DNA of 64,000 nt from a bacterium (lineage in GTDB: Bacteria > Electryoneota > Electryoneia > Electryoneales > Electryoneaceae). Of this stretch, positions 23,001 through 36,700 are shown one piece after another. Location of the stretch: contig JAHLLH010000014.1 of NCBI GenBank assembly GCA_020444265.1, forward strand, positions 8,339 through 72,338, written 5' to 3'. Made by a program: the position numbers and the translations under genes. How positions within the stretch are numbered: position 1 is the stretch's first letter; each line of letters begins with the position of its first letter. Under the pieces are notes generated by a model. That model saw only the letters and a list, made by a program, of their open reading frames with translations, made no database searches and was not told the origin of the DNA.

Positions 23001-23125
23001 TGGCTTTTGTCATCCTCGGCGGATTGCTTACTGCCACCTTCTTAAACCTCGCAGTCGTTCCCGCGATGTTCATGAAGTGGGGTGTCCAACCCGTGGATGA
23101 AGCAAAACACAAAGCGTATTTCTGA
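20015..23125 (+). CDS. CusA/CzcA-family heavy-metal efflux RND transporter
   Basis: 1036 aa with the heavy-metal-efflux RND architecture (two large periplasmic loops and the conserved GGLAIAIGVLVDDAIIYVEN motif). Confidence 0.9.
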   Translation: MLDRLMRISLRNRLIVLVAALAILIVGTLVTLNMPVDVFPDLTAPTVTILTEAHGMAPEEVENLVTFPIETVVNGASGVRRVRSNSIQGLSTVWVEFDWGTDIYVARQIINEKLQIMRNTLPGGVDQPVLAPITSIMGEIMLVGLTADTTSPMDLRTLAEFTVGRRIQAVPGVSQVLVYGGETRQYQVLVDPYKITARGLTLDEVLDAVQEANINATGGLFISSGQEYLIRGLGRINNIAELKKTVITTEGHVPVLVEDIADVVIGPAFRLGTASINNENGVLLVIAKQPEANTLTLTDNILETLDGLRASLPVDISLHTEIFRQSDFIQTAIDNVLSALGEGAVLVTIILFLFLVNVRTTVISVLAIPLSLVIAFLSLKLLGMSVNTMTLGGLAIAIGVLVDDAIIYVENVYRRIRQNAEVPEADRRPFVDVVADASSEIRSPIAMATFIVIVVFIPLFFLSGVEGRMLKPLGFAYVISILASLLVAVTVTPALSSFLLRNIDQKKEHGDSWFVRQLKKAYEPSLVYFLKHKGIVIGVSAALVVLAISILPFFGRSFLPEFNEGTFNISLATLPGTSLEGSHEIGGMVESILLSNEAVLSTARRTGRTELDEHSLGSHAHELEVQVDLSNISKQELLEQLRSSLTMVQGTNITIGQPISHRIDHMLSGTRAAIAVKLFGPDLYSLRRYAEQIRQEMAEVEGLVDLFVDQQTDVPQVRITVDRERMAMYGLRSADLDELIDVAFLGAKTSQVYEGDHRYDLIVRYAEDYRDDLESIRNTLIDVPTGGAIPLEMVANIREDRGPNYISRENVQRKIVVQANVSGRDLRGAVEEIREKISTNLDLPRGYHVEYGGQFESEEQATRTVLLLSIVSIIAILVVLYLEFGNFRQAFLVMVNLPLALIGGIVSIFFTEGIISIASLVGFITLFGIAVRNGIMMVSHYNHLMNQEGKTLYEAVVQGSMERLSPILMTAMTTGLALIPLAMAADKPGSELQSPMAFVILGGLLTATFLNLAVVPAMFMKWGVQPVDEAKHKAYF

Positions 23126-23237: not shown

Positions 23238-24104
23238 TTAGAAAATCCAGGTGTATCCAAAGAGGGCGGCGACCACGATGTGAATAGCCAGGATGATGAA
23301 CATGACGATGGCGAAGGGACGGTGGATGACATGCCAGTAGTGAAGGATTTTCTGGGAGACCTGGAGGAAACGCATCCGTCGCTTGAGAAGGGTTCGCCGA
23401 CGAACCAGGTCGATGATATCCTTGATTTCCTTATTGCCGAGCGAGGCGCGCTTTTTCAATTCACCCCGTAACCCGGACAACGCAAGACGCAGCCGAACAT
23501 CCTGCCCGATCCAAGTGAAGATAGCTGCGAAACCAGTCTTCCGTTTCGAGACCGGGACAACATCCTCGTGCAGCTTCTCAATCAGTTCCTCGTCCACCCC
23601 GTGCACATCGCGGATCTGCCCCATCAACTCGTCATCGAGTTGTTCGAGCTGCTCGCCGGACATTGCGGCACCGGAGAGGCTGCGTGGAATCTGCAAGTAG
23701 ACATAGCGCCCGAGGAACCCCGACAGGGCCACCGCGAGCATTGACCAGAAGGCAATGGCGACAATGCCGCCGAACTTGAAGGTGGTGTGGAAAATGACCA
23801 GGATCGGCCCGGTGATGCCCATCCAGATATGGACATCCAGCCAGTGACGCAGGTTGCCCCAATCCTGCATGAAACGGAAGTGTTTCCGTGCGATGTAAAG
23901 CAGCAGCATTGACATCAGGATCGCCCCGGCGATGCCGAGCGCGTGCCCGATAAATCCTCCCGCCTTCCAGTCGGTGTGCAGGTCACTGTGGGGACGTTCT
24001 GTCAACGGAAGAGAGTAGTAATCCCAGCCGTGGTAGAGAATCCAGGCTACAACGATGCCGGTCAGGGAATAGAGAAAGATCATCAGAAAGCGGTGGAAGC
24101 GCAT
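23238..24104 (-). CDS. polytopic membrane protein with two bis-His pairs at 14-residue spacing (ferric-reductase-like di-heme-b fold); putative
   Basis: DVHIWMGITGPILVIFH and WHVIHRPFAIVMFIILAIH sit within predicted transmembrane helices. This resembles the His spacing of the FRD, MsrQ and YedZ superfamily. Confidence 0.45.
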   Translation of the reverse strand: MRFHRFLMIFLYSLTGIVVAWILYHGWDYYSLPLTERPHSDLHTDWKAGGFIGHALGIAGAILMSMLLLYIARKHFRFMQDWGNLRHWLDVHIWMGITGPILVIFHTTFKFGGIVAIAFWSMLAVALSGFLGRYVYLQIPRSLSGAAMSGEQLEQLDDELMGQIRDVHGVDEELIEKLHEDVVPVSKRKTGFAAIFTWIGQDVRLRLALSGLRGELKKRASLGNKEIKDIIDLVRRRTLLKRRMRFLQVSQKILHYWHVIHRPFAIVMFIILAIHIVVAALFGYTWIF

Positions 24105-24254
24105 TGGGGAAGATGCCTTTCAACTGGTTTTTTTCACAGCCACTACAATAAGGTACCCCAGCTTGTCTTGCCAAGCCGGGATTTCGTTTTGGTAAAAAGA
24201 GACCCGGCTTGCAAGTCAAGCCGGGGCACCCAGATTATGACCTTCTGTTTCCAG

Positions 24255-25877
24255 CTAGAGCCGGTACCCCACCTCAAGGTAGACACGGTTCGAGGCGAGG
24301 TTGTCGCCTCGGTACGCCTCGCCATAGACCGAGGTGTACCACGACCTTGCGAGGGTCATGCTCGCGCCCAGCTTGGCAAAGGAGTAGGTCACCTTCCCAC
24401 CCGCAGAAAGGTCATACCGACTTTGCCCGACCTGACCGTTCAGATAGACCGTGCGGAAGAGGTACCGTGTGAGCTGGAGCGAGGGCTGCATACCTGTGCT
24501 GTACCGATTCTCGAAGGTGTTGATCTGTGCGGTGATCTTCACCCCGCTGCCGAGCAGGTCACGTTGGCTGATCCCACCCAGCAAGGTACGTGTGTCCTGG
24601 CTGTCCCCTTCGCGTAGACGAAGGCCAGCACGTGTGAACAAGCGCATCCCGAAGGGGAAGATATAGCTCGCTCCTGCACGGTACCCTTGACGCAAGGCAT
24701 CGTCGAAGAGGCTGTCAGGCGTGTCACGGGTCTCATAGGTACGCACCTGGGTACGATTGTCATAGCCGATGTCCAACGAGAGGTCGTCCACCGGACGCCA
24801 TCGTCCCGTCAGCAGCAGATTGCTCATGCCGAACGATTGCCCTTCGACATCCTTCCGCCAGCCTCGATAGACCTCAAGCTCGCCACTCTGGTAGAGGCTC
24901 CAGGTCCGTCCCCCGCTCAGTTGAAGCTGTTCGTAGAGGTATTCCTGGCTGATGGTGCCCGAGTTGTACCGTCCCGCAAAAGCGAGGGTCGCAGCAAGAC
25001 GTGTCGTCTCCCAGCTTCCTCGTTCGATGGCCGCATACACTCCGCCTTTGGTCTCATCGGTGCCAGGACGTGAGGTGCGGTAGTCCGGCTGGGTTCCGGC
25101 AAACAGGCCGTATGAGAAACGTTCCTGCTGCTGCATCTCGAAGTGAAGTCCGTCGATGGTGCCTATGCCTGCGAAACGATTAGAGAGAATCCTGCCAGCG
25201 TTGTAGTGCAGCGGAGAGGATGGATTGTCGTATCCGAAAGAGACCTCGTAAACACGGTTGAACCATTCGCTCTGGGTATCGGGCGAGAGATCGGATGCGC
25301 GCTGAACGCGTCGGCTGCGGAAACGGAGATTCAGGGTGTAGTAAGAGTTGAAGAGGTTTTCGGCGCGGAGACGGCCTGTCAGGGAGGGCTCTGTGACATC
25401 GTAATTGGTCGCTTCGAGGTCGTCCTGAATCATTACCTGAACGCCGAGTCGGCCTGAAAGGCGTGCACGAGGACGTTCCTGCTCAACGGTCCTCACAACC
25501 TGACGCTTTGTCCCTGTGGACGGGGTAACTGCGACAGAATCCTCTTCGGTGACTTCGGCCTCTTCCGGCATAACCTCGCCACTTGCGGCGACGGTTGCAC
25601 GATCCCCCACTTGCACCGGACCACCTTCGACCAGCTTGCAGACAGCAGTTGTCCCCGCAAGATAGGTTACCTCGAGGGTGGCGACAGTCGACCCTTCGCG
25701 CTCGATCTGGACCCTATCACCTACCGCAATGCCCTGATCGCTGCCAGCATCGAGGTAGATGCCCGAGGCGGAGACATATTTTACCGTTGTCGCCAGATCA
25801 CTCGCCAGGGCGCTTCCCAAGCCACCCAGCAGTCCAATCAGCAAAACCAGCCAACCTGCTCTGAGAAAAACCTTCAT
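24255..25877 (-). CDS. outer-membrane beta-barrel protein (porin-like component of the cytochrome operon)
   Basis: Signal peptide, then 540 aa with an alternating hydrophobic and aromatic beta-strand pattern, rich in G, Y, R and T. Last gene of the multiheme cytochrome operon, 4 bp after MHC3. Confidence 0.65.
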   Translation of the reverse strand: MKVFLRAGWLVLLIGLLGGLGSALASDLATTVKYVSASGIYLDAGSDQGIAVGDRVQIEREGSTVATLEVTYLAGTTAVCKLVEGGPVQVGDRATVAASGEVMPEEAEVTEEDSVAVTPSTGTKRQVVRTVEQERPRARLSGRLGVQVMIQDDLEATNYDVTEPSLTGRLRAENLFNSYYTLNLRFRSRRVQRASDLSPDTQSEWFNRVYEVSFGYDNPSSPLHYNAGRILSNRFAGIGTIDGLHFEMQQQERFSYGLFAGTQPDYRTSRPGTDETKGGVYAAIERGSWETTRLAATLAFAGRYNSGTISQEYLYEQLQLSGGRTWSLYQSGELEVYRGWRKDVEGQSFGMSNLLLTGRWRPVDDLSLDIGYDNRTQVRTYETRDTPDSLFDDALRQGYRAGASYIFPFGMRLFTRAGLRLREGDSQDTRTLLGGISQRDLLGSGVKITAQINTFENRYSTGMQPSLQLTRYLFRTVYLNGQVGQSRYDLSAGGKVTYSFAKLGASMTLARSWYTSVYGEAYRGDNLASNRVYLEVGYRL

Positions 25878-25881
25878 CAGC

Positions 25882-27411
25882 TCACCGTTCTTTCGGGCTG
25901 TCTATGCGGGCGGGATGCAGGAGACGATCATCCTCGGCCCGTCCATCGGGATGGCAATCATAACAGGCGGCGCTGTCGTAGACATACCCCCCCACATCAT
26001 CGTGCTCATCGTTCATCTCGGACTGACTGTGCTCATGACATGAGATGCAGGTAAACACCTGGTAGTTGCTCGTATTCGGGTGACATTCGGAGCAACTGGC
26101 CCACTCGTTGCGATGTTCTCCCGAGTAGATCGGGAACCACTGGGAATCGTGGTTGAAGTTCGCATTGTCCCAGGAAATCGTATTGTGGCAGCTGTCGCAA
26201 TCCTGCGGGAAGCCCGCGGCAGCATGGTCTGGGTCCGTGGTGGTATTGTAGTCCGCCTCGTGACAAAAGAAGCAGTCCGAAGGGGTGTTGACATACCCCG
26301 CTGTATGGCAGAGGCTGCAATCGAGACCAACATGAGCCCCCGTCAGGGGAAAGTCGGTCTGCGAATGGTCAAAATCGGCATCGTCCCAGGTGACTGTCGA
26401 GTGGCATAATACACAATCAAGCGGGAAGTTTTCCTGCACATGATCGGGATCGGTCGTCCCCTCGAAATCGGCTTGGTGGCAAGCATAACACTCGGATGGT
26501 GTGCCAGTGTAACCAGATGCATGGCATTGGAGACAATCGAGGGGCTGGTGTGCACCAGTCAGCGGAAACGCAGTGTCGTGGTGATCAAAGACGATTCGAT
26601 CCCAACCGAGCGCCGTATGGCAGAGGACACAATCGGTTGGATACTGATCAGCAACATGGTTCGGGTCAGTCGTGCCCTCATAATCCGCCTGGTGACAGGC
26701 ATAGCAGGCGGAGCTACCGATGGTGTAGTCTCCGCCGGTATGGCACTCGACACAGACCAGCAGCGCATGCTGACCAACCAGCGGAAAACCTGTCCGGCCA
26801 TGGTCGAAGATCGACTCTTCCCACTTCTGCACCCCATGACAGCTGCTGCAATCGGCATCGAATCCTGCTTGCACATGGTTGGGGTTGGTGGTCGCCCGGT
26901 AGCTATCCCAGTGGCAGGTCTGGCACGTCGTCGAGAGGGCACGATACTGCCCGGAGGCATGGCACGCCTGGCAGTCCAGCGGCGCATGGACCCCGACCAA
27001 CGGGAACCGTGTCTCCTGGTGCATCAGGCGGAAACGGGACTCATCACTCCAGCCCAAAGGTGAATGGCACTCCTCGCAGGATCGTCCGAATTCGCCACGA
27101 TGGATGTCGGTGTGGCAGGCCGCGCAGTTCGTTGAAACGTCCAGAAAAACAGGATCCGTGTGACACAAGGCGCAGGCGACACCCTTGTGAAATCCTTCTA
27201 ACGGGTAGTTGGTGTCCCTGTCATGGTCGAAGCGCAGCACGGGCAGAAGCTGGTCCCATCCCTCGGTGCCATGGCAGGCGCTGCACTCGAGCTCCATATC
27301 GCCGTGTGGGTTGGTCCCGGTCTGCAACGGCGTGGCGTCAGCAACTCCGACCAGCAGCCCCAACATCAGCACGACGAGGGGGGATCGTCTTGATGTCAAC
27401 AATCGTTTCAT
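25882..27411 (-). CDS. multiheme c-type cytochrome, about 19 CxxCH motifs (MHC3; paralog of the C-terminal part of MHC2)
   Basis: Signal peptide. I counted 19 CxxCH motifs. The C-terminal ~110 aa are nearly identical to the MHC2 C-terminus (...SDCFFCHE.DYN...QWFPIYSGEHRNEW.SCSECHPN...FTCISCHEH...ACYDCHPDGRAEDDRLL). Confidence 0.9.
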   Translation of the reverse strand: MKRLLTSRRSPLVVLMLGLLVGVADATPLQTGTNPHGDMELECSACHGTEGWDQLLPVLRFDHDRDTNYPLEGFHKGVACALCHTDPVFLDVSTNCAACHTDIHRGEFGRSCEECHSPLGWSDESRFRLMHQETRFPLVGVHAPLDCQACHASGQYRALSTTCQTCHWDSYRATTNPNHVQAGFDADCSSCHGVQKWEESIFDHGRTGFPLVGQHALLVCVECHTGGDYTIGSSACYACHQADYEGTTDPNHVADQYPTDCVLCHTALGWDRIVFDHHDTAFPLTGAHQPLDCLQCHASGYTGTPSECYACHQADFEGTTDPDHVQENFPLDCVLCHSTVTWDDADFDHSQTDFPLTGAHVGLDCSLCHTAGYVNTPSDCFFCHEADYNTTTDPDHAAAGFPQDCDSCHNTISWDNANFNHDSQWFPIYSGEHRNEWASCSECHPNTSNYQVFTCISCHEHSQSEMNDEHDDVGGYVYDSAACYDCHPDGRAEDDRLLHPARIDSPKER

Positions 27412-27444
27412 CGGGTTTCGATGTTCATCCGAATCATCTCTCGT

Positions 27445-30327
27445 TTACCGTTCTTTCGGGCTGTTTATTCGCGGGTGTTTCAGCAGACGATCATCCTCGG
27501 CACGTCCATCCGGGTGGCAGTCATAGCAGGCGCTGCTCTCGTAGATATACCCACCCACATCATCATGCTCGTCATCCATGTCATTCTGGTTGTGCTCGTG
27601 GCAGGAGATGCAGGTGAAGACCAGGTAGTTGTCCGGGTTCGGATGGCACTCGGAACAGCTGTCCCACTCGTTGCGATGTTCCCCGGAATAGATCGGGAAC
27701 CACTGCGCATCGTGGTTGAAATTTGCATCATCCCAGGTCACCGTATTATGGCAACTTTCGCAGGTCTGCGGGAACCCGGCAGACTGATGGTTCGGATCGT
27801 CGGCACCATTGTAGTCATCTTCATGACAGAAGAAGCAGTCTGAAGGCGTATTGGTGTAACCTTGGGAATGACAAAGGTTGCAGTCGAGACCATTGTGCGA
27901 TCCGGTCAACGGCCAGCCCGTGTCGCTATGATCAAACAGTGGCGCACTCCAATCAGCCGTGGTATGGCATTCGGTGCAAACCTGCCCGAAGCCGGCATCG
28001 CTATGGTTCGGGTCGGAAACCCCGTTGTAATCCTCCTCATGGCACGACCAGCAATCAGAGGGGGTGCCGGAAAAACCATCAGCATGGCAAAGATTGCAGT
28101 CAATGGAGGTGTGCGCCCCGGTCAATGGCCAGCCGGTATCACCGTGATCAAACAACGGTGCGTTCCAGTCAGCGGTGGTGTGGCACTCGGTACAATCTTG
28201 TCCGAAGCCGGCATCGCTGTGGTTCGGGTCGGCCACCCCGCTGTAGTCCTCTTCATGGCATGACCAGCAATCTGATGGAGTACCACTGAACATGGTTGCA
28301 TGACAGAGGTTGCAATCGAGTGACGTGTGCGCTCCGGTCAACGGCCATTCAGTGTAGCTGGCATGGTCGAAGTCGTCCGCATCCCAATCCTCTGTCGTGT
28401 GGCACTCGGTGCAGTCGTGTGGGTAGTTCAGCGCCACATGATCCGGATCGTCCGTGCCCTCATAATCCGCCTGGTGGCAGGACCAGCAGTCAGTCGGTGT
28501 GCCGACATAACCATCCGAATGACACAAACTGCAATCGAGAGTACGGTGGGCACCGGTCAACGGGAAATCGGTCTGATCATGGTCGAAGGTGGACTCATCC
28601 CAATCGCTCGTATTGTGGCAGATCGAGCAGTCGGTCGGGAACCCTTCTGCGACATGGTTCGGGTCGTCCGTGCCCTCGTAATCCGCCTGGTGGCAGGCGT
28701 AGCAGTCTGTCGGTGTGCCGGCATAGACACCACCGATGTGACAGAGTGCGCAATCGACATTACGGTGTTCGCCCGTCAAGGGGAAGTTGGTCTGGTCGTG
28801 ATCGAAATCCGCCCCTTCCCAAGTGATCGTCGTGTGACAGAGTGTGCAGTCCATCGGGTAGTTCTGCACCTCGTGGTCCGGATCCTCCGTTCCACGATAA
28901 TCTTCCTCATGGCACGACCAGCAATCATCCGGCGTGTCGGCATAGACCCCTTCAACATGACAGAGGTTGCAGTCGACATTGATGTGCTCACCGGTCAACG
29001 AATAATTGGTCTGGGCATCATGGTTGAAATTCGAGGGGGTCCACTCCGCCGTGGTGTGGCAGAGCGTGCAGTCGAGATCGAAGCTGTCCGGGTTGTGAAT
29101 CGGATCCTCGACCTCGGTGTAATCCGCCTCATGGCAGGAATAGCAATCATATGCGGTACCGTTGAACCCCTCCGCATGACAATCCGCGCACCCCAGTTCC
29201 AGATGGGCACCGTCGATGGTAAAATTGGTTTCGCTATGGTCGAAATCGGCGGGGGTATACGCCATTGTTGTATGGCACATTGTGCAGTCGAAATCGAACG
29301 CACCGTCCACATGGTTCGGGTCGTCCACACTCTCGTAGTCTTCACGGTGACAGCCAACACACTGGTCCGGGGTGCCGGTGTACTGGGCTTCGTGGCAGAG
29401 AGCACAATCGAGCGTCGTATGGGCACCGTCCAAGGGGAAACTGGTCAGGTCATGGTTGACGAAATCCGCCGGGGTCCAGGCGATGGTCGTGTGGCAGAGC
29501 TGGCACATCGTATTGAAGGCCGGACCGCTATGGTCCGGGTCAACTGTTCCTGCGAAGTCAGTATGATGGCAGGCATCGCACTCGTTGGAAACTTCGGTGT
29601 ACGCCTGACCAGCCACATGGCAGAGGGCGCAATCGCGGACAGCATGCCCGCCGGTCAACGGAAAGCTTTGGGTGTGGACAAACTGCACATCCGGGCCACC
29701 CCAATCGCCTCCGCCATCACCGCCAGCCTGGGTGACCCCATGACACTCGCTGCAATCGGTCGGAAAACCAGCCGCTGAATGGTCGGGATCGGTAGTGGAC
29801 TGGTAGGTATCGAGGTGGCAGGTGATGCACTCGGTGGAGAGGTCGCGGTACTCGCCGGACGCATGGCACGCCTGGCAATCGAGACCGGCATGGACCCCGA
29901 CCAGTGGGAACCGTGTCTCCTGGTGCATCTGACGGAACATCGGTTCATCCTGCCAATTCTGCGGCGAATGGCACTGATCGCAGGAGTTCCCGAACTGCCC
30001 CTCGTGGATGTCCGTATGGCAGGAAAAGCAGTCGGTGTCAGCATCACGGAAGACAAGACTCGTGTGGCAGGAGGAGCAGGCTACTTGCCCGTGCTGTCCT
30101 TCGAGCGGGTAACGGGTGTCGGCATCGTGGTTGAACAGGAGGACCGGTAGCAGACGATCCCATCCTTCGGTGCCATGGCAGTCATTGCAAGCCAAATCGA
30201 TCGGACCGTGCGGATTGTCCCCGTTCTGGGTAAACCCGGCAAGGGCCGATGAACCGATTGTCAGCAGGATCAGGCCCGCTAGCAGGACCACGGAGAATGT
30301 TCGCTGCAAAGTCACGTGTCTCATCAT
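27445..30327 (-). CDS. giant multiheme c-type cytochrome, about 37 CxxCH motifs, with internal near-identical tandem repeats (MHC2)
   Basis: I counted 37 CxxCH motifs. A repeating unit of roughly 60 aa (DC.LCH...GTP.DCWSCHEEDY.G..DPNHSDAGFGQ.CTECHTTADW.APLFDH.DTGWPLTG.H) occurs several times. I take the start at MMRHV (30327), which leaves a 28-nt gap to MHC1. Confidence 0.9.
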   Translation of the reverse strand: MMRHVTLQRTFSVVLLAGLILLTIGSSALAGFTQNGDNPHGPIDLACNDCHGTEGWDRLLPVLLFNHDADTRYPLEGQHGQVACSSCHTSLVFRDADTDCFSCHTDIHEGQFGNSCDQCHSPQNWQDEPMFRQMHQETRFPLVGVHAGLDCQACHASGEYRDLSTECITCHLDTYQSTTDPDHSAAGFPTDCSECHGVTQAGGDGGGDWGGPDVQFVHTQSFPLTGGHAVRDCALCHVAGQAYTEVSNECDACHHTDFAGTVDPDHSGPAFNTMCQLCHTTIAWTPADFVNHDLTSFPLDGAHTTLDCALCHEAQYTGTPDQCVGCHREDYESVDDPNHVDGAFDFDCTMCHTTMAYTPADFDHSETNFTIDGAHLELGCADCHAEGFNGTAYDCYSCHEADYTEVEDPIHNPDSFDLDCTLCHTTAEWTPSNFNHDAQTNYSLTGEHINVDCNLCHVEGVYADTPDDCWSCHEEDYRGTEDPDHEVQNYPMDCTLCHTTITWEGADFDHDQTNFPLTGEHRNVDCALCHIGGVYAGTPTDCYACHQADYEGTDDPNHVAEGFPTDCSICHNTSDWDESTFDHDQTDFPLTGAHRTLDCSLCHSDGYVGTPTDCWSCHQADYEGTDDPDHVALNYPHDCTECHTTEDWDADDFDHASYTEWPLTGAHTSLDCNLCHATMFSGTPSDCWSCHEEDYSGVADPNHSDAGFGQDCTECHTTADWNAPLFDHGDTGWPLTGAHTSIDCNLCHADGFSGTPSDCWSCHEEDYNGVSDPNHSDAGFGQVCTECHTTADWSAPLFDHSDTGWPLTGSHNGLDCNLCHSQGYTNTPSDCFFCHEDDYNGADDPNHQSAGFPQTCESCHNTVTWDDANFNHDAQWFPIYSGEHRNEWDSCSECHPNPDNYLVFTCISCHEHNQNDMDDEHDDVGGYIYESSACYDCHPDGRAEDDRLLKHPRINSPKER

Positions 30328-30355
30328 CTTCCCCTTTCCACACTGGGTAAACCAT

Positions 30356-32092
30356 TTACCCGCGTGTCCCCTCCATCTGCGGAACCGTGCTGCCATGGCA
30401 ATCGGAACACTCCATGCCGAGCGGCTTGTAGATCACCATCTCGCTGCCATCGCTTCGCATCACCGGCTTATGGCACTGGTTGCACTCCACCTTGATGTGA
30501 GCACCATCGAGTTGGAATCGGCTATCCCGGTTGTGCACAAATTCCAGCTCCTTCCAGCCCGCAGGCTGGTGGCAACGATCACAGGTGGTCTCGGTTTCGC
30601 CTTGGTCCATTCGTACAAACTGATCGCCGTGGATGTTGTCATGACAGCCGGCGCAGGTCATCTCAAGCGGTTTCATCCAGACAACCTGTTCCCCTTCCTG
30701 CTCAATGGTGTGGCATTCGAGGCAGAGGATTTCGCGGTGCTGTCCTTCGAGCGGGAATCGTGCCAGACTGTGGTCAAAGCTGGTACGATGCCAGGTATCT
30801 GTCGAGTGGCAGTACTCGCAGCCGTTCTTATCGACCCAGATGTTGAGCTGGCCCTGGTGGATGTCCTCATGGCATGCCTGGCAGGTCGTCATCTCCCAGG
30901 CAAACTGGGCATAGCTGCCATCGTCATCCTCCATCACCTGCGCATGGCAGAGGTTGCAGGGAACGGCAAAATGGCTGCCGGTCAGGGGATAGTCCGATTG
31001 CTGGTGCTGCTCAAAGCCATAATCGGCCGGGATGAAGCCCTCTACTGTGTGGCAGCTTTCGCACGCACCACCATCACTGCGCCCAGCGAACTGCCCGCGA
31101 TGTTCATCGTCGTGGCAATCGGTGCACCCGGCGAACTTGAGCGGATCGGTCATCACACCCGTTGTGTGGCACTCCTTGCAGTCAACATCGATATGTTTTC
31201 CACGCAGGGGATAAGTCGTCTTGTCGTGATCAAACTGCTCGTCCTTGACTTGTTGGAAGCTCGCGGTCGTGTGACATTTGGTACAGTTGGCCCCGAAACG
31301 GCCCTCGTGCTTGTCCTCATGACAGTTGACGCAGCTTGAGTACTCGAGGCCCTGGTAGTGCGAATATTGGCCGACATGCTCGGCTTTCTGGAGCAGGTTC
31401 GAATTGACCGCTGGAGCTTCCTGCCAGGGGTGGCATTTTTCGCAGGAGACATCGGTGTGCTTGCCGTCCAAACGGTACTTCGCATCGTCGTGGTTAAACC
31501 CGGATGCCGGGGTCCAGCCCTCCATCGTGTGGCAGGTAAGGCAATCATCGGTGAGTTGATTACGGTGTTCATCGACATGGCAGGTGACACACGCTTTGTC
31601 CAGGCCGAGGTGGGTACGATCCTTGTCGATGCTGTCATCGTTCCCGAAACGATCCGCCTGCTGGAACCGTGCCACATGACAATCGGCACAATCTTCTTCC
31701 GCATGCTTGCCTTCGAGGGGATACCCGGTCAGGGTGTGGTCAAAGTTGTCCTGTCCCTCTGTCCAGAAAATGAGCTCGTAATCCCGTCCGTGATGTTCCG
31801 AGTGGCACGATGCGCAGGTTTTATCCGTGACCTCAGCGGAAGCATGGTAGCCGCTGCCCTCATCCATCCGGGTTTGGATGGCAGTATGGCAGACAAGACA
31901 CTTCTCGTTGGTCACCGCCTCACCCAGCTGGTGGCAGTTGGTGCAGTTGCGGATCCCTTCCAGCTCTTCATGATAGCCGGACAGCTTACCGGGAGAAATC
32001 TGGGCCAGTGATGGCACCGCCCAAAGCAGCATTAATGCCACAATGGACATGCTTCGTGTCCAGCACCCAGTACCCTGCCGCATGTTCTTCAT
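30356..32092 (-). CDS. multiheme c-type cytochrome, about 20 CxxCH motifs (MHC1)
   Basis: Signal peptide MKNMRQGTGCWTRSMSIVALMLLWAVPSLAQ. I counted 20 CxxCH motifs. Confidence 0.9.
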   Translation of the reverse strand: MKNMRQGTGCWTRSMSIVALMLLWAVPSLAQISPGKLSGYHEELEGIRNCTNCHQLGEAVTNEKCLVCHTAIQTRMDEGSGYHASAEVTDKTCASCHSEHHGRDYELIFWTEGQDNFDHTLTGYPLEGKHAEEDCADCHVARFQQADRFGNDDSIDKDRTHLGLDKACVTCHVDEHRNQLTDDCLTCHTMEGWTPASGFNHDDAKYRLDGKHTDVSCEKCHPWQEAPAVNSNLLQKAEHVGQYSHYQGLEYSSCVNCHEDKHEGRFGANCTKCHTTASFQQVKDEQFDHDKTTYPLRGKHIDVDCKECHTTGVMTDPLKFAGCTDCHDDEHRGQFAGRSDGGACESCHTVEGFIPADYGFEQHQQSDYPLTGSHFAVPCNLCHAQVMEDDDGSYAQFAWEMTTCQACHEDIHQGQLNIWVDKNGCEYCHSTDTWHRTSFDHSLARFPLEGQHREILCLECHTIEQEGEQVVWMKPLEMTCAGCHDNIHGDQFVRMDQGETETTCDRCHQPAGWKELEFVHNRDSRFQLDGAHIKVECNQCHKPVMRSDGSEMVIYKPLGMECSDCHGSTVPQMEGTRG

Positions 32093-32122
32093 GGTCCTTC
32101 TACCCCCTGCTGCCCAGTTCGG

Positions 32123-33436
32123 TCAAGATTCCCCGAATTTCCGTGTGAACTGCACGCCAACTCGCTCCAGAAACGCCGTCGGCAACTCCCCACCCGCGAA
32201 GATGAAAACCTGGTCATTGGGCAGTGTCACTGTCTCGCCAGCCTTGTCGAGGATGACTGCATCATCGAGGATTTCTTTCACCTCGGACAGCAAAATGAGT
32301 TCGATCTTGCCAGACTCTACCGCCTTGTCGAGACGATCTTTGTTGCCTTCTTTGATACGGAAAATGCGGTCACGGCGGTAGGAAAGATGGACCGTGTTGC
32401 CCTCTACATCGCTCAGGGCTACCGCCGCTTCCACTGCGCTGTCACCTCCACCGACCACGAGAATGTTTAGGTCGTGGTACTTCTCCGGATTCAGCATCCG
32501 GTAAGCGACCTTTGAAGCTTTTTCCCCCGGGCAGCCCAGTTTACGCGGGCTGCCGCGACGTCCAATCGCGAGCAGCACACGTTTTGCCTCGAACGTCTCG
32601 CCTTGCGCTGTGGTCACTGTGAAATGACCATTCGTTTTCTCGACCGTTTCCACCTTCTGTCCGGCATGCACCTTTAAATCGGCCACGCTGAAGATTTCGC
32701 TGAAGAGCTCCAGCAGTTTTTCTTTTTGCACTTCACGCAGTTTCAGTTTGCCGTAGATCGGCAAATCAACAGGTCGTGTCATCACCAGCTTACGTCGCGG
32801 ATAGGTGAGGACTGTTCCGCCCAGATCTTCCTGATCGACAATCGCAAAGTTTATCTTCTCGGTCCGTGCCGCCAACGCCGCACCCAACCCCGCTGGTCCT
32901 GCACCGACAATCACCAGGTCGAGCACTTTCTCCGCTCGTTTCTTCTCGTCTAGGCTCTTCGCGATGAACTGCGCCGCCTGGATGCCCTGGGTCATCGCAT
33001 TGCGAATCAACCCCATTCCACCCAGTTCACCAGCAATGTAGACTCCAGCCACATTCGTTTCGAATGTGCCCTTCAAGTGAGGGATGTCCACCCCTCGTTT
33101 TTCCGTGCCAAAGACGAGGGAAATTGCCTCTACCGGACAGGCGGCATGGCACATCCCATGGCCGATGCAGCGTGATGGATTGATCAAAGCACCGCGGTTG
33201 TTGATCAGGCCGAGCACATCCTGTTCAGGACAGGCACGGACACAAGCGCCGGAACCAATGCAGGTGTTGGGGTCAATCACGGGATGGAGGGAGACCGGTT
33301 CATCGAGGCCGAGTTCGATGGCCTTCTTCAGGGTGGTGGCCGCTTTCTCACTTTTGCGACGTTCCCGCAGCCAGTAGAGTGCGGGCACAAGAATGGTCAG
33401 CAAACCGACAACGACATAGATTAACACCTCGAGCAC
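32123..33436 (-). CDS. membrane-anchored fusion of a 2x[4Fe-4S] ferredoxin and an FAD/NAD(P)-binding oxidoreductase
   Basis: N-terminal transmembrane helix, two 4Fe-4S motifs (CIGSGACVRACP and CIGHGMCHAACP), then pyridine-nucleotide-disulfide-oxidoreductase Rossmann motifs (VIVGAGPAGLGAA and ILVVGGGDSAVEAA). First gene of the cytochrome operon. Confidence 0.8.
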   Translation of the reverse strand: MLEVLIYVVVGLLTILVPALYWLRERRKSEKAATTLKKAIELGLDEPVSLHPVIDPNTCIGSGACVRACPEQDVLGLINNRGALINPSRCIGHGMCHAACPVEAISLVFGTEKRGVDIPHLKGTFETNVAGVYIAGELGGMGLIRNAMTQGIQAAQFIAKSLDEKKRAEKVLDLVIVGAGPAGLGAALAARTEKINFAIVDQEDLGGTVLTYPRRKLVMTRPVDLPIYGKLKLREVQKEKLLELFSEIFSVADLKVHAGQKVETVEKTNGHFTVTTAQGETFEAKRVLLAIGRRGSPRKLGCPGEKASKVAYRMLNPEKYHDLNILVVGGGDSAVEAAVALSDVEGNTVHLSYRRDRIFRIKEGNKDRLDKAVESGKIELILLSEVKEILDDAVILDKAGETVTLPNDQVFIFAGGELPTAFLERVGVQFTRKFGES

Positions 33437-33673
33437 GGCCGCCTCAGAGTTAGGGAATCAGAACACTGAAACCTAAATAAATCTCAGGTATTCAGCACGG
33501 CTGCGATCCCCCCGACTGCCATTTCCAGCCCGCCGTATATATTCCTGCTAATTCTCTATAAAATATGGAATAGCAAATAGATGTGCTGCTGACAACACAG
33601 TGTTTTACTCTCCTAACAACAAAAATAAACGGGGGCTAAACTCCCTGTCACCTCCTTCTCTTCTTTGTCTAAA

Positions 33674-33701
33674 TCAACGGCTGCGCAGAAGCGCAGCCGT
33701 T
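33674..33701 (-). terminator. terminator hairpin downstream of the RND2 gene (CAACGGCTGCGC agaa GCGCAGCCGTTG)
   Basis: Perfect 12-bp stem in the region between the RND2 stop and the promoter region of the cytochrome operon. Confidence 0.5.
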
Positions 33702-33745
33702 GGTCATACTTTAACGGTGTAATTTAGGAGTTGTAAGATTGCCGC

Positions 33746-36700
33746 TCATCTTGGATCAACCTTCATCCTTGATTCGAGTCGTCCCTCGAACCACTTGTAG
33801 AAGGCTGGTAGCACGAGCAGGGTCAGCAAGGTCGAGGTAACGAGGCCACCGACAACGACGGTCGCCAGGGGACGCTGCACCTCGCTACCGGTACCAGTCG
33901 CGAAGAGCAACGGGGTCAGGCCGAGGGCAGTGGTGACAGCGGTCATCAGCACGGCACGCATTCTAAGCATGGCGGCCTTGACCGACGCCTCGTCCAGCGC
34001 AATACCTTCCTTTCGTAACCCGTTCAGGGTGCTCAGCAGGACCATGCCGTTCTCGAGCGCTATCCCGAACAGGGCGATAAACCCTACCGATGAAGGCACC
34101 GACAGGTTCTGCCCGCTGATCCACAGCGCAAGAATGCCACCCACAAGTGCAAGGGGAATATTGAGCAAAATCAGCAGGGTGTTTTTCAGCGAATTGAAGC
34201 TTGTGTAAAGAAGCAGCGTAATGAGCAGCAGGGTAATCGGTACTACCACAGCAAGCCGTTTGTTGGCCTCCTGCTGCAAACGGAACTGCCCACCCCAAGT
34301 CACCAGGTAGCCAGCAGGCAAATCAACCTCCCTGGCGATCACCTGCTCTGCTTCAGCGACGAACGACCCGATGTCACGTTCTTCGACATTACACTGGATC
34401 GAGATGAAGCGTTGGTTGTCCTCACGTGTAATCTGTCGTGGGCCAGTAATGGTCTGGACATCCGCAAGCTGATCCAACGGCACCAGCAATCCGTCCGGAG
34501 TTGGTACAAGGATCGAACGAATCGCCTCTGGTGTACTACGTGCCTCCTCACGGTAGCGAACGACGATGTCGAAGCGACGAATCCCTTCGAAAATCTGACC
34601 CGCTTCCTCGCCGCCAACCGCCGCCGCAACCACTTCCTGGACATCTGCGATTGGAACACCGTAGCGAGCAATCGCTTCACGGTCAATTTGTACAAGTAAC
34701 TGAGGGGTGCCGCTAATCTGATCGACCTGGACATCACGAGCGCCGGGTACGGTTTGCAGCGCAAGGGCAATCTCATCAGCAGATGCTTTCAGCTGATCAA
34801 GATCATCGCCAAATAGTTTCACGGCCAGTTCTGCCTTCACCCCTTCCAGCAACTCATCGATGGTGGCCGCAATGGGCTGTGTGAAGCTGACGCGAGTCCC
34901 TGGGACATTACCAAGATCACCACGGATCAGGTCGACCAACTCCGGCTGGCTGCTTACACGCCACGTCGATTCATCGCTCAGCAACACGTACATTTCGACA
35001 CTGTTAACCGGATCGGTATGAGCGCCAACTTCCCCTCGTCCAATCCGGCTGACCACCTCTTCGACTTCGGGAATATCCATCAGGCGACGTTCCACAATCA
35101 TCGCCATCCGTTTGCTCTCCTCCAGCGCGATGGAGGGCGCCAGGGTGAGCCGGATCAGGAGGGTGCCCTCCTGAAGCTGAGGAGTAAACTCACTGCCGAG
35201 CTGGGTTACCCCAACACCACCCGTCAGCAACAGCACCACCACCAGCAGTACGGCCAGGCTTCGTCGTGAGATGAACTTTCGCAGCAGTGGTTCATAGAGT
35301 CGATTGAGCCCATTGATCATCTTCGACGAAACGGATCTGTCCCTTGAGCGATATCGTCTCCTCATCAACAAACTCGCCAGCACTGGCACCGCAACAATTG
35401 CATAGACTAACGATCCCGCCATCGCATAACCGATAGTCCAGGCCAGTGGACGGAACGTCTTCCCTTCCACGCCCTGCAAAGTCATGATCGGCGAGAAGAC
35501 AACGAGAATAATCAGGATCGAAAAGGTGACGGGACGCAGCACTTCGCCTGCGGCATCGAGGACAATTTGCCTGCGGTCCCCCATTCCCGAACTCTGCTGC
35601 AAACGTCGGTCAATGTTCTCGACCAGCACGACGGCACCATCGACCATCATCCCGATAGCAATCGCCAGTCCACCGAGCGACATCAGGTTGGCGGAAATAC
35701 CGGTTTGACGCATCAGCAGGAAAGCAAACAGCACGGAGAAAGGGATCGAGAGTGCAACGACAAGGCTGGGACGCCATCCGCCCATGAAGAGCAGGATGAC
35801 TAGAATGACAAGGACAACGCCTTGGCCCAGGGCGGAAAGAACGGTTGATACCGCAGCATCGACCAGACTTTTCTGGTCGTAATAGGGAACGATCCGGACC
35901 CCTTCTGGTAGAATCGTGTTGACCTCGTCCAGCTTCTTCTCAACTCGTTCAATCACAGACGAGGTGTTGCTTCCAAATAGTTTGATCACCTGCCCTGCAA
36001 CCACCTCTTCCACACCATTGTGGGTCTGGAGGCCACGACGTATCGCGCCACCTTCACGCACGTTGGCGATGTCATGAAGGTGGATCGGCACACCATCCAC
36101 CGACTTGACCACAACTCGATTCAGGTCATCAATACTTTTGGCCAAGCCAACTGAGCGGACGATATACTCTTCCGCGTTCTCCTCGACAAACTGCGCGCCG
36201 GTGTTGAGGTTGTTGGCTTTCAACGCCTCCACCACCTCGTGCAGACGGATGCCATACCTCAGCAGGGATGCGGGATCCACCACCACCTGGAATTGCTTCT
36301 CCCAGCCACCGATTCCAAGTACTTCGGTAACACCTGGTACGGTCTGGAGGTGGTACTTGATCAACCAATCCTGGATGCTGCGCAGCTCGGTCAGGGAACG
36401 TGTTCCGGTGGTATCCTCGAGGTAGTAGAAGAGGACGAGGCCCATTCCGGTCGAGATCGGTCCCATCTCCGGGTCACCAAAGCCTTCCGGGATCTGGTCA
36501 CGCGCCTCCTGCAAGCGTTCGTTGACCAATTGCCGTGCGAAGTAGATGTCCACGTCATCCTCGAAGTAGACATTCACCACCGACAGCCCGAAGTTGGAAA
36601 CCGAACGTACTTTTGTCAGGCCCGGCAAGCCGTTCATCACCGTTTCAACTGGATAGGTGATGTAGGTTTCCACCTCTTCCGGCGCCAATCCCTCGGTGAC

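What the first reader, a model, noticed from the sequence alone, without database searches (positions are those of the whole stretch)
23238..33745. Candidate novel porin-cytochrome extracellular electron-transfer (or metal-reduction) conduit in a T9SS-bearing lineage
A single minus-strand operon runs, in transcription order, from 33436 to 24255. Its first gene is a transmembrane-anchored 2x[4Fe-4S]-ferredoxin/FAD-NAD(P) oxidoreductase. Three secreted multiheme c-type cytochromes follow, with about 20, 37 and 19 CxxCH motifs (about 76 heme sites in total). The last gene is a 540-aa outer-membrane beta-barrel. A polytopic membrane protein with ferric-reductase-like bis-His pairs follows immediately. 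Multiheme cytochromes combined with an outer-membrane barrel is the defining layout of MtrCAB, PioAB and Pcc-type electron conduits. Here the cytochromes are far larger, the proposed electron-input module is unusual, and the cell also has T9SS. I do not recognise this architecture as a described system. The cytochromes use the paired-CxxCH style seen in Geobacter-type cytochromes.
Basis: partly seen in the sequence, partly recalled or inferred. Interest (0 to 1): 0.9.

Follow-up and report, generated by a model that had tools for sequence, protein, structure and literature searches.

The report
PCC3-like porin-cytochrome conduit with NAD(P)H input
This six-gene cluster most likely builds a wire of about 76 haems that carries electrons from NAD(P)H inside the cell, across both membranes, to acceptors outside; the same uncharacterised cluster occurs in hundreds of Bacteroidota-group species, including cultured ones.

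Summary
Five tightly spaced minus-strand genes encode a membrane-anchored ferredoxin/FAD-NAD(P)H reductase, three multihaem cytochromes with 20, 37 and 19 CxxCH motifs, and a 540-aa protein modelled as a 22-strand outer-membrane barrel. A five-helix protein with two conserved His-x13-His pairs follows.

The gene set is strongly co-conserved. Of 40 species loci with full flanks, all 40 have the reductase and cytochromes and 37 have the barrel. They span Bacteroidota, Ignavibacteriota, Calditrichota, Zixibacteria, KSB1 and Marinimicrobia. The cluster is also on a plasmid of cultured Emticicia oligotrophica.

The architecture is not undescribed. It matches "PCC3" (He et al. 2017), predicted from proteobacterial genomes and never tested. 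PCC3 has a porin, a roughly 21-haem periplasmic cytochrome, a repeat-built cytochrome with variable haem number, and a roughly 300-aa inner-membrane protein with SGxxG and two Wx3Hx13H motifs.

Three things appear new: the fused ferredoxin-reductase gene with an invariant CxxHxxCxxxCP motif, a smaller barrel family that has no Pfam model, and the spread across the FCB group.

Best reading: NAD(P)H → FAD → Fe-S → two b haems → 20-haem relay → repeat cytochrome in the barrel → outside. No step has been tested biochemically.

The parts
32123..33436 (-). g1: membrane-anchored ferredoxin / FAD-NAD(P)H reductase (437 aa). It has an N-terminal TM helix, a dicluster Fer4 domain with motifs CIGSGACxxxCP and CIGHGMCxxxCP, and a thioredoxin-reductase-fold flavoprotein domain with no CxxC.
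   Evidence: Pfam Pyr_redox_3 9.7e-42 and Fer4_10 6.8e-12. Best solved relatives are YpdA/Bdr (7a7b, 7e-27) and TrxR-type ferredoxin-NADP reductases. In 76 homologues the His of the second motif is invariant, the equivalent position of the first motif is S, C or T, none has a CxxC in the FAD domain, and 75 keep the N-terminal hydrophobic helix.
30356..32092 (-). g2: secreted 20-haem cytochrome c (578 aa), the constant member of the cluster. The mature N-terminus is QISPGxL.
   Evidence: 20 CxxCH. Pfam Cytochrome_C7 1.2e-21 and c3_2 2.4e-20. Weak sub-threshold similarity to the DmsE/MtrA decahaem family (45 bits against a cut-off of 192). A 20-haem ORF is present in 67 related loci, with a conserved signal-peptide cleavage site and no consistent lipobox: only 3 of about 69 N-termini match a loose lipobox pattern, and the window protein does not.
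27445..30327 (-). g3: secreted 37-haem cytochrome c built from about 12 trihaem repeats of 72-73 aa, with constant N- and C-terminal modules. The ORF extends to 30396, but the likely start is 30327.
   Evidence: 37 CxxCH with a spacing pattern of about 32-15-25. Pfam Cytochrome_C7 1.8e-36. 25 aa per haem and pI 4.3. Neighbouring repeats 684-755 and 756-827 are about 89% identical. An RBS lies before the ATG at 30327.
25882..27411 (-). g4: secreted 19-haem paralogue of g3 (509 aa) with about 6 trihaem repeats and the same terminal modules.
   Evidence: 19 CxxCH. The N-terminal about 170 aa are 66% identical to g3 and the C-terminal 160 aa are 77% identical. The only solved relative is a weak hit to the GSU1996 hexahaem fragment 3ouq (E = 0.003).
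24255..25877 (-). g5: outer-membrane protein (540 aa) with a signal peptide, a small periplasmic beta domain (28-97), a linker and a 22-strand beta barrel (139-539).
24203..24225 (-). Terminator-like hairpin (9 bp stem, 7 G-C pairs, T-rich tail) between g5 and g6. A promoter-like site follows at 24174-24145.
   Evidence: with the sequence. The overall counts of such sites in the region are not above shuffled expectation, so this is only a candidate.
23238..24104 (-). g6: inner-membrane protein (288 aa) with 5 TM helices and a roughly 100-aa cytoplasmic helical insert. It is a putative dihaem b-type cytochrome with motifs W88xxxH92x13H106 (TM3), S128GxxG132 (TM4) and W257xxxH261x13H275 (TM5).
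33437..33745 (-). Upstream intergenic region that presumably holds the cluster's own promoter. It lies behind a hairpin that ends the preceding RND efflux operon.
   Evidence: Sequence: GC-rich hairpin AACGGCTGCGC-TTCT-GCGCAGCCGTT near 33700-33675, and a GAGG site before the GTG start. One sigma-70-like match at 33651-33622. The promoter assignment is an inference.

Best explanation
The region encodes a PCC3-type electron conduit that spans the whole cell envelope. It has an unusual, probably quinone-independent, input.

Proposed path:
1. g1 sits on the cytoplasmic face of the inner membrane. It oxidises NAD(P)H on its FAD and passes electrons through two Fe-S clusters. One cluster has an invariant His ligand and is the likely exit cluster.
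2. g6 carries electrons across the inner membrane on two stacked b haems. H92/H261 would hold the cytoplasmic-side haem and H106/H275 the periplasmic-side haem.
3. The constant 20-haem cytochrome g2 takes electrons from g6 and relays them through the periplasm.
4. The repeat-built cytochromes g3 and g4 (37 and 19 haems, about 25 aa per haem) work with the 22-strand barrel g5 to take electrons across the outer membrane. They then pass them to extracellular acceptors such as Fe(III)/Mn(IV) minerals, humics or other cells.

Shown here: the domain content, the motifs, the fold predictions and the co-conservation.

Inferred: cofactor loading, which partner contacts which, which cytochrome sits in the barrel, surface exposure, the direction of flow and the acceptor.
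For: (1) Components and motifs are as listed under parts.

(2) The five component types stay together while gene order changes. This holds in loci found through the barrel, down to 27% identity, and through g6. Among 40 GTDB species loci with full 10-kb flanks, 40 have g1, 40 have cytochromes with at least 8 haems, and 37 have the barrel. In one of the three exceptions an 87-haem ORF runs off the end of the locus.

(3) The architecture and the IMP signature match PCC3 as published (PMC5566968; PMC9900912).

(4) The IMP family is homologous (hhalign 99.6%) to IMPs on proteobacterial plasmids. There the neighbouring gene is a different, non-homologous NAD(P)H flavo-Fe-S reductase (FAD_binding_6 + NAD_binding_1 + Fer2), followed by a 7-haem cytochrome c. 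Two unrelated NAD(P)H reductases next to the same IMP and a periplasmic multihaem cytochrome point to NAD(P)H as the IMP's electron source, as in NOX, FRE and STEAP enzymes.

(5) g1 has no redox-active CxxC in 0 of 76 homologues, so it is a ferredoxin-NADP-reductase-like enzyme and not a disulfide reductase.

(6) All haems can be bis-His ligated, there is no CxxCK, and the aa-per-haem ratio of about 25 is that of wire-type rather than catalytic cytochromes.

(7) The second cytochrome varies from 8 to at least 87 haems among species while the first stays at 20. A fixed periplasmic width cannot explain that range. An extracellular extension can (inference).

(8) Energetics (inference): exporting electrons from NAD(P)H is downhill and is helped by the inside-negative membrane potential. 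Reducing NAD(P)+ from outside would be uphill on both counts.
Against: - There are no experimental data for this cluster or for PCC3. The 2025 Sideroxydans preprint still calls PCC3 "functionally unverified".
- None of the cytochromes is consistently a lipoprotein or carries a recognised signal for crossing the outer membrane. Surface exposure is therefore unproven.
- The best structural match of g6 is CybB, a quinone-reactive cytochrome b561. He et al. proposed quinone coupling and inward flow for PCC3.
- In this window g6 lies behind a terminator-like hairpin and is not adjacent to g1.
- Hosts include aerobes such as Emticicia and Saprospiraceae. Anaerobic mineral respiration therefore cannot be the only role.
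Confidence: 0.55

Rival explanations
1. Same hardware, but coupled to quinones. g6 acts as a menaquinol:cytochrome c oxidoreductase, like the b-type domain of CbcL or like CybB, FdnI and HyaC. g1 is either an NAD(P)H:quinone reductase partner or a regulatory or repair accessory. The conduit would then be a branch of the respiratory chain.
Against: Two unrelated NAD(P)H flavo-Fe-S reductases are found fused into the same gene neighbourhood with this IMP family. This is hard to explain if the IMP is fed from quinol. g6 also has an invariant haem-ligand pair on the cytoplasmic side and a conserved cytoplasmic insert that could dock a partner. No quinone site could be identified or excluded.
Confidence: 0.2
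2. A periplasm-confined system. The cytochromes would serve as an electron store (capacitor) or as a periplasmic reductant supply for metal or oxidant detoxification. The barrel would be an ordinary channel or anchor that does not carry electrons.
For: The cytochromes have no lipid anchor and no recognised outer-membrane export signal. The barrel resembles generic porins most closely. The window cluster lies between two CusA/CzcA heavy-metal efflux systems. The proteobacterial reductase-IMP-cytochrome triads have no annotated outer-membrane barrel in the regions examined and sit in metal-resistance islands. A capacitor role has been suggested for large cytochromes.
Against: A barrel of this one family accompanies the giant cytochrome in 37 of 40 full-flank loci. 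It is usually immediately downstream, with a 4-bp gap in the window. Cytochromes of 40 to 87 haems would be several times longer than the periplasm is wide (inference from roughly 1 nm per haem in GSU1996-type chains, from my own knowledge).
Confidence: 0.12
3. Inward electron uptake, for example Fe(II) or mineral oxidation, as hypothesised for PCC3 in iron-oxidising Gallionellaceae. Electrons would enter through the barrel and cytochromes and reach the inner membrane through g6.
For: PCC3 was discovered in Fe(II) oxidisers and modelled in that direction. The IMP gene of one PCC3 copy rises when Sideroxydans CL21 oxidises iron. Multihaem chains are reversible in principle.
Against: The FCB version always carries an NAD(P)H-type reductase. 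Reducing NAD(P)+ (about -320 mV) from Fe(II) against an inside-negative potential is strongly uphill (inference). The hosts are mostly organotrophs. No carbon-fixation or Fe-oxidiser marker genes were seen in the window.
Confidence: 0.08

Closest known systems
PCC3 porin-cytochrome c cluster (He et al. 2017, Front Microbiol 8:1584; Sideroxydans, Leptothrix and other Alpha-, Beta- and Gammaproteobacteria). Predicted from genomes only.
   Same: Both have four components: an outer-membrane barrel, a periplasmic cytochrome with about 21 haems (20 here), a repeat-built cytochrome with low aa-per-haem ratio and a very large, variable haem number (10 to 85 there; 8 to at least 87 here), and an inner-membrane protein of about 300 aa. 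That protein has 5 TM helices, SGxxG on TM4 and Wx3Hx13H on TM3 and TM5.
   Different: The version here has an added gene for a membrane-anchored Fer4 + TrxR-fold NAD(P)H flavoprotein. It is present in all 40 full-flank loci and is not reported for PCC3. The barrel has 22 strands and 540 aa, whereas PCC3 porins are described as having up to 42 predicted strands. The hosts are FCB-group bacteria, not Proteobacteria. This window has two repeat cytochromes. Direct sequence homology to Slit_0867-0870 could not be tested.
MtrCAB / MtoAB / PioAB
   Same: The logic is the same: a multihaem cytochrome is associated with an outer-membrane barrel to move electrons across the outer membrane. The C-terminal half of g2 has weak similarity to DmsE/MtrA decahaems.
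NOX / FRE / STEAP ferric-reductase superfamily, including bacterial NOX5 and SpNOX
   Different: The reductase is a separate polypeptide of a different fold (thioredoxin-reductase-like, not FNR-like), and two Fe-S clusters sit between the flavin and the haems. The membrane protein has 5 TM helices, not 6. The acceptor is a multihaem cytochrome c rather than O2 or Fe(III) chelates.
Tmc / Hmc transmembrane redox complexes of sulfate reducers (from my own knowledge)
   Same: A periplasmic high-haem cytochrome c is linked through a membrane cytochrome b to a cytoplasmic Fe-S protein.
   Different: The protein families differ (CCG-domain Fe-S subunits, NarI-like cytochrome b). These complexes have no flavin/NAD(P)H domain and no outer-membrane barrel. 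The accepted direction of flow there is inward.
Geobacter c7-polymer cytochromes (GSU1996 family; NCBIfam nanowire_3heme)
   Same: g3 and g4 are chains of trihaem c7-like units (Pfam Cytochrome_C7). There is a weak hit to the GSU1996 fragment 3ouq.
   Different: The chains here are far longer (6 to 12 units in the window, up to about 29 in relatives). They have conserved terminal modules and are genetically coupled to a barrel and an inner-membrane module.

Membership tests
PCC3 (He et al. 2017) | Conserved inner-membrane protein of about 300 aa with five TM helices, SGxxG on TM4 and Wx3Hx13H on TM3 and TM5 | tested here: met
   g6 is 288 aa with five modelled TM helices and motifs W88xxxH92x13H106, S128GxxG132 and W257xxxH261x13H275. 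These residues are invariant in 36-40 homologues. Definition taken.
PCC3 (He et al. 2017) | Periplasmic multihaem cytochrome with about 21 haems (21-27 in Gallionellaceae) | tested here: met
   g2 has 20 CxxCH and a Sec signal peptide. A 20-haem ORF is found in 67 related loci, and 23 haems in some. Periplasmic location is inferred.
PCC3 (He et al. 2017) | Second cytochrome with a very large, variable haem number, internal repeats and a low aa-per-haem ratio | tested here: met
   g3 has 37 haems and g4 has 19, built from 72-73-aa trihaem repeats at about 25 aa per haem. The range in relatives is 8 to at least 87. Extracellular location cannot be tested here.
PCC3 (He et al. 2017) | Adjacent outer-membrane beta-barrel porin, described as mostly very large (up to 42 predicted strands) | tested here: inconclusive
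   A barrel gene lies 4 bp downstream of g4, but the model has only 22 strands. Whether it is homologous to PCC3 porins is unknown.
PCC3 (He et al. 2017) | Sequence homology to reference PCC3 proteins (for example S. lithotrophicus ES-1) | not tested
Only homology of g6 to other proteobacterial IMPs was shown.
MtrAB / PioAB / MtoAB | Porin of the MtrB_PioB family (26 strands) sheathing a DmsE-family decahaem | tested here: not met
MtrCAB / Geobacter Pcc (OmcB-type) | Surface cytochrome is a lipoprotein | tested here: not met
   The window cytochromes have no lipobox. Their signal-peptidase-I-type cleavage sites (…AQ|ISPG, …AQ|SPHG) are conserved across about 120 homologous N-termini, of which about 9 match a loose lipobox pattern.
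Ferric-reductase (FRD, PF01794) / NOX-type transmembrane domain | Two bis-His b-haem sites from His pairs about 13 residues apart on two TM helices | tested here: met
   Motifs and invariance. Fold matches to CybB, STEAP and NOX5 TM domains. Haem binding itself cannot be tested here.
Ferric-reductase (FRD, PF01794) / NOX-type transmembrane domain | Pfam family membership and six TM helices with a fused FAD_binding_8/NAD_binding_6 domain | tested here: not met
   The window protein has no PF01794 hit, only sub-threshold DUF4405 and Ni_hydr_CYTB hits. It has five TM helices. The reductase is a separate gene with a different fold. A few homologues do carry PF01794.
Thioredoxin-reductase-like ferredoxin-NADP reductase / YpdA | Two Rossmann motifs (FAD and NAD(P)H) without a redox-active CxxC | tested here: met
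   GAGPAG and GGGDSA motifs are conserved, and 0 of 76 homologues have a CxxC in the flavoprotein domain. PDB hits are 7a7b, 2zbw and 5ygq. The scores are far below the YpdA and TrxB equivalog cut-offs (157 against 340), so this is a relative and not a member of those named families.
Catalytic multihaem reductases (NrfA, Hao, sulfite reductase type) | Catalytic haem signature (CxxCK, or a haem lacking a distal His) and family HMM hits | tested here: not met
   No CxxCK is present and there is enough His for bis-His ligation of all haems. No Nrf, Hao or octahaem family hits.

The most novel reading that the evidence does not exclude
The FCB-group cluster is a quinone-independent, NOX-like "electron exhaust". 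Cytoplasmic NAD(P)H would be wired through a His-ligated Fe-S flavoprotein and a dihaem b protein to single-polypeptide haem wires. The length of those wires would be tuned by trihaem repeat number (about 10 to more than 87 haems). They would thread a dedicated 22-strand barrel and extend tens of nanometres outside the cell.

If so, this would be a major unrecognised route of extracellular electron transfer. It would occur in Bacteroidota, Ignavibacteriota, Calditrichota and their relatives, including aerobes and plasmid-borne copies. It would also identify the long-missing inner-membrane entry mechanism of PCC3-type conduits.
Probability: 0.4. Interest if true: 0.85.

Novelty: new variant of a known kind. 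Interest (0 to 1): 0.68.

Why it matters
- Porin-cytochrome conduits are how Gram-negative cells exchange electrons with minerals, electrodes and partner cells. How electrons enter PCC3-type conduits at the inner membrane is unknown, and PCC3 itself has never been tested.
- This cluster places an NAD(P)H flavo-Fe-S reductase next to the PCC3-type inner-membrane protein in hundreds of species. A second, unrelated NAD(P)H reductase plays the same positional role on proteobacterial plasmids. Together these give a concrete, testable mechanism: NAD(P)H-fed, possibly quinone-independent electron export.
- It would explain the "undescribed" giant cytochromes reported from Bacteroidota in wastewater (PMC11495043).
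- It would also widen the set of organisms expected to reduce metals or humics or to interact with electrodes.
- Cultured carriers exist: Emticicia oligotrophica DSM 17448 (plasmid pEMTOL02) and Maribellus sediminis Y2-1-60. Experiments are therefore feasible.

Tried and rejected
- MtrCAB or Geobacter Pcc membership was rejected (see membership tests). The Pcc cluster reported for Ignavibacterium album (14-haem periplasmic cytochrome of 400 aa) has a different composition.
- Catalytic nitrite- or sulfite-reductase-type cytochromes were rejected. There are no catalytic motifs or family hits.
- T9SS export of the cytochromes was rejected. They have no Por_Secre_tail domain, although the window does hold a T9SS cargo protein.
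- A strict "3n+1 haems" rule for the variable cytochrome holds only partly. 54 of 99 complete cytochrome ORFs with at least 8 haems and a count other than 20 fit it, against about 33 expected by chance. Split ORFs in long-read MAGs and other paralogues blur the count.
I found no paper describing this cluster in the FCB group or linking PCC3 to an NAD(P)H reductase. The library lacks most subscription journals, so an existing description cannot be excluded.
- The Ace Lake, Caldithrix, Melioribacter, Bothnian Sea bioreactor and Brownlee Reservoir papers contained nothing relevant.
- The promoter and terminator scan was not above shuffled expectation overall. Only the hairpin after g5 is noted, as a candidate.
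- Taxonomy of the source stayed unresolved. The exact protein matches are to an NCBI MAG labelled only "bacterium" (KQI63_16485 and KQI63_16490). The nearest g6 relatives are labelled Calditrichaeota or unclassified.

Full report
**Observation**

In transcription order they are:

| Gene | Coordinates | Length | Content |
|---|---|---|---|
| g1 | 32123-33436 | 437 aa | TM-anchored ferredoxin / FAD-NAD(P)H reductase |
| g2 | 30356-32092 | 578 aa | 20 CxxCH |
| g3 | 27445-30396 | 983 aa as ORF | 37 CxxCH |
| g4 | 25882-27411 | 509 aa | 19 CxxCH |
| g5 | 24255-25877 | 540 aa | outer-membrane barrel |
| g6 | 23238-24104 | 288 aa | five-helix membrane protein |

- The counts of 20, 37 and 19 are exact. 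There are no CxxCK or longer-spaced motifs, and each protein has enough His for bis-His ligation of every haem.
- The likely start of g3 is the ATG at 30327, which follows an AAGGGG site, so g3 does not overlap g2.
- Gaps between g1 and g5 are 4 to about 33 bp.
- The 150-bp gap before g6 holds a GC-rich hairpin with a T tail (24225-24203) and a promoter-like site. In this genome g6 may therefore be transcribed separately.

**Individual parts**

*g1.*
- It has an N-terminal hydrophobic helix followed by a Lys/Arg-rich stretch, which places the rest of the protein in the cytoplasm. A Fer4 dicluster domain and a Pyr_redox_3 flavoprotein domain follow.
- The closest solved relatives are YpdA/Bdr and thioredoxin-reductase-type ferredoxin-NADP reductases.
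- In 76 homologues taken from related loci, none has the redox-active CxxC of thioredoxin reductases. The FAD and NAD(P)H glycine motifs are conserved.
- The two cluster motifs are not canonical. The second is C-[VI]-G-H-G-x-C-x-x-x-C-P, with His invariant in 76 of 76. The first has Ser, Cys or Thr at the equivalent position. "2x[4Fe-4S]" is therefore only roughly right. One cluster is probably His-ligated, as in the distal clusters of hydrogenases that hand electrons to partner proteins (my own knowledge). The other may be a [3Fe-4S] or a Ser-ligated cluster.

*g2, g3 and g4.*
- All hit Cytochrome_C7 and c3-type Pfam families. They do not reach the thresholds of the MtrA/DmsE, MtrC or Paired_CXXCH families.
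- g3 and g4 are paralogues with 66-77% identical terminal modules. They differ in the number of 72-73-aa trihaem repeats, about 12 against about 6. Two neighbouring repeats in g3 are about 89% identical, which indicates recent unit duplication.
- At about 25 aa per haem and pI 4.3-4.7 they are extreme "wire" cytochromes.
- The signal peptides end in …AQ|ISPG for the 20-haem type and …AQ|SPHG for the repeat type in most homologues. The window g3 ends …ALA|GFTQNGDNPHG. There is no consistent lipobox and no T9SS C-terminal domain.

*g5.*
- AlphaFold2 models it at pLDDT 88 as a small N-terminal beta domain, a disordered linker and a 22-strand barrel.
- There is no Pfam, NCBIfam or PDB sequence match.
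- A profile search finds 3767 clusters at E <= 1e-3 and 1170 at E <= 1e-30. This is a large family without a model.
- From standard barrel geometry (n = 22, shear number about 24) I estimate a Cα-Cα diameter near 40 Å. That is the size class of TonB-dependent receptors, whose barrels hold a plug domain of about 150 aa, so a slim haem chain could fit. This is an inference. I could not inspect the model's lumen.

*g6.*
- It models as a five-helix protein with a long cytoplasmic helical insert.
- H92, H106, H258, H261 and H275 are invariant.

**Co-conservation**

- *From the barrel.* Relatives down to 27% identity sit next to a g1 homologue, a g6 homologue and multihaem cytochromes, in several different gene orders.
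- *From g6.* The same set appears in a 4-Mb JGI contig and in an Ignavibacteria MAG.
The best 80 loci come from:
  - Bacteroidota (Prolixibacteraceae, Saprospiraceae, Draconibacterium, Flavobacteriales and the isolate Maribellus sediminis);
  - Ignavibacteriota, Calditrichota, Zixibacteria, KSB1, Marinimicrobia, Krumholzibacteriia and a few others.
- *Counts.* Scoring these loci with my own HMMs gave the following for the 40 loci with full 10-kb flanks: all 40 have g1, all 40 have cytochromes with at least 8 haems, and 37 have the barrel.
- *Haem numbers.* One cytochrome has exactly 20 haems in 67 loci. The other ranges from 8 to at least 87.
- *Usual order.* The commonest order is g6-g1-MHC20-MHCvar-barrel.

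**Comparison with what is known**

- *The match to PCC3.* He et al. 2017 (PMC5566968) described "PCC3" in Alpha-, Beta- and Gammaproteobacteria. It comprises:
  - a porin;
  - a periplasmic cytochrome with a median of 21 haems;
  - an "extracellular" cytochrome with a median of 34 and up to 85 haems, built from repeats with a very low aa-per-haem ratio;
  - a conserved inner-membrane protein of about 300 aa with five TM helices, SGxxG on TM4 and Wx3Hx13H on TM3 and TM5, interpreted as a ferric-reductase-like dihaem b protein.
- *g6 fits that description.* It carries precisely these motifs, and the cytochrome pair fits as well.
- *Status of PCC3.* Later work in Gallionellaceae repeats the model. 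As late as 2025 PCC3 was still called functionally unverified.
- *Consequence for novelty.* The architecture is a described, though purely predicted, kind.
- *What I did not find.* Ten literature searches gave no report of it in the FCB group and no report of an NAD(P)H reductase gene in it. A 2024 survey calls the giant Bacteroidota cytochromes "undescribed". RefSeq annotates the Emticicia genes only as hypothetical, "NAD(P)-binding domain-containing" and "cytochrome c3 family".

**Evidence on mechanism from plasmids**

A tblastn search of g6 against plasmids gave two informative results.

- *Emticicia.* The whole cluster lies on plasmid pEMTOL02 of the cultured aerobe Emticicia oligotrophica DSM 17448, in the order ccsA-g6-g1-MHC23-MHC40-barrel. 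The same motifs CIGSGAC…CP and CVGHGAC…CP are present. The cluster is therefore mobile and is available in a culturable host.
- *Proteobacteria.* Plasmids of Bradyrhizobium BTAi1, Legionella pneumophila and Methylophaga pinxianii carry a three-gene module. Many Sphingobium plasmids also gave matches to g6 and to g2, but I did not inspect their gene context. The module consists of:
  - a 610-670-aa reductase with FAD_binding_6, NAD_binding_1 and Fer2 domains;
  - a g6-like IMP with Hx13H, SGxxG and Wx3Hx13H;
  - a 7-haem cytochrome c.
  It often lies in metal-resistance regions or next to pentose-phosphate genes.
- *Homology.* The IMPs of the two lineages are homologous (hhalign 99.6%, E = 7e-25). 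The reductases are not.
- *What this implies.* Two unrelated NAD(P)H-flavin-Fe-S reductases recruited next to the same membrane protein and a periplasmic multihaem cytochrome are the strongest available argument that the IMP is fed from cytoplasmic NAD(P)H, as in NOX, FRE and STEAP enzymes. On this view the FCB cluster equals that inner-membrane export module plus a giant cytochrome and a barrel.

**Most likely mechanism (confidence about 0.55 for the whole chain)**

NAD(P)H → FAD (g1) → two Fe-S clusters, with the His-ligated one as exit → inner b haem (H92/H261) → outer b haem (H106/H275) of g6 → 20-haem g2 in the periplasm → repeat cytochrome(s) g3 and g4 associated with barrel g5 → extracellular acceptor.

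- *Direction.* It is inferred from energetics. Export from NAD(P)H is downhill and is aided by the inside-negative potential. The reverse would be uphill on both counts.
- *Physiological role.* Such a path would not build proton-motive force by itself. It would act as an electron sink that regenerates NAD(P)+, which suits fermentative or facultative organotrophs.
- *Length variation.* The 8 to at least 87 haem range of the second cytochrome, against a constant 20-haem partner, is easier to explain by an extracellular extension than by a periplasmic span.
- *Open points.* It remains unknown which cytochrome occupies the barrel, how it gets there without a lipid anchor or known export signal, and what the acceptor is.

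**Rivals**

| Rival | Weight |
|---|---|
| Quinol-coupled operation of g6 | 0.20 |
| Periplasm-confined storage or detoxification | 0.12 |
| Inward electron uptake | 0.08 |

- *Quinol-coupled.* Supported by the match to CybB and by He et al.'s own model.
- *Periplasm-confined.* Supported by the missing export signals, the generic look of the barrel and the heavy-metal context.
- *Inward uptake.* The role originally proposed for PCC3 in iron oxidisers.

Evidence for and against each is given in the rival entries.

**Verdict**

- The interpretation as a porin-cytochrome electron conduit is well supported by anatomy and co-conservation.
- The claim of an undescribed architecture is only partly right. 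I rate it a new variant of a known, still untested kind (PCC3).
- The variant adds an informative feature, the NAD(P)H ferredoxin-flavoprotein. That makes the open question of the conduit's inner-membrane entry point directly testable in cultured hosts.

Noticed in passing
window 17062-23125 (+) and 33746-39375 (-): The cytochrome cluster lies between two complete RND efflux systems. Both pumps pass the CusA/CzcA heavy-metal family threshold (797 and 1139 bits against a cut-off of 701). The adaptor at 36863-38077 has His-rich termini. Related clusters in other genomes do not share these flanks.
   Followed up: partly
window 58625-59485 (-); also 14886-16181 (-): A secreted protein combines a choice-of-anchor V domain with a T9SS type-A sorting domain (39 bits against a cut-off of 23). 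A second ORF is borderline (22.6 bits). This confirms that the lineage uses T9SS, but it is unconnected to the cytochromes.
   Followed up: yes
L089 (Emticicia oligotrophica DSM 17448 plasmid pEMTOL02, NC_018749.1 78197-90781): The complete cluster (g6, g1, 23-haem and 40-haem cytochromes, barrel) is plasmid-borne in a cultured aerobic oligotroph. A fused cytochrome c biogenesis gene ccsA precedes it and a GW-domain protein follows. This suggests horizontal mobility as a self-contained unit.
   Followed up: partly
L090 9946-13436; L091 8070-11847; L092 6037-9508: Plasmids of Bradyrhizobium BTAi1, Methylophaga pinxianii and Legionella pneumophila carry a triad: an FNR-type reductase with a 2Fe-2S domain, a g6-like inner-membrane protein and a 7-haem cytochrome c (DUF1622 follows in Methylophaga). 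They lie next to copper or heavy-metal resistance genes or to zwf, gnd and tal. Many Sphingobium plasmids also match g6 and g2, but their context was not inspected. The function of the triad seems uncharacterised.
   Followed up: partly
L006 (JGI 3300033154 contig), 4941-9624 and 12107-18877: One metagenomic contig carries two copies of the cluster components: two g6, two g1, two barrels (one with an N-terminal FlgT_C-like extension) and several cytochromes.
   Followed up: no
window 27445-30327, protein residues 684-755 and 756-827 of g3: Two adjacent 72-aa trihaem repeats are about 89% identical, much closer than the other repeats. This indicates a recent tandem duplication and a mechanism for changing haem number.
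   Followed up: partly
window 2981-5978 (-) and 10119-12398 (-): Beta and alpha subunits of a Na+-translocating oxaloacetate decarboxylase, and a MaeB-type malic enzyme with a PTA domain (possibly NADP-linked). These point to an anaerobic or fermentative carbon metabolism that could supply NAD(P)H. A MaeB-type gene also lies near the cluster in L004.
   Followed up: no
window 60767-62428 (-) and 50596-52215 (-): A full-length DUF4301 protein (E = 1e-190) of unknown function. Also a 539-aa ORF with no Pfam hit and only a faint similarity to a Desulfovibrio-type trimeric porin.
   Followed up: no
L001 (ENA contig_16221), 3152-9846: In this long contig the g6, g1 and cytochrome genes are broken into many short ORFs, while the barrel is intact. 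This looks like frameshift errors of a long-read assembly rather than pseudogenisation.
   Followed up: no
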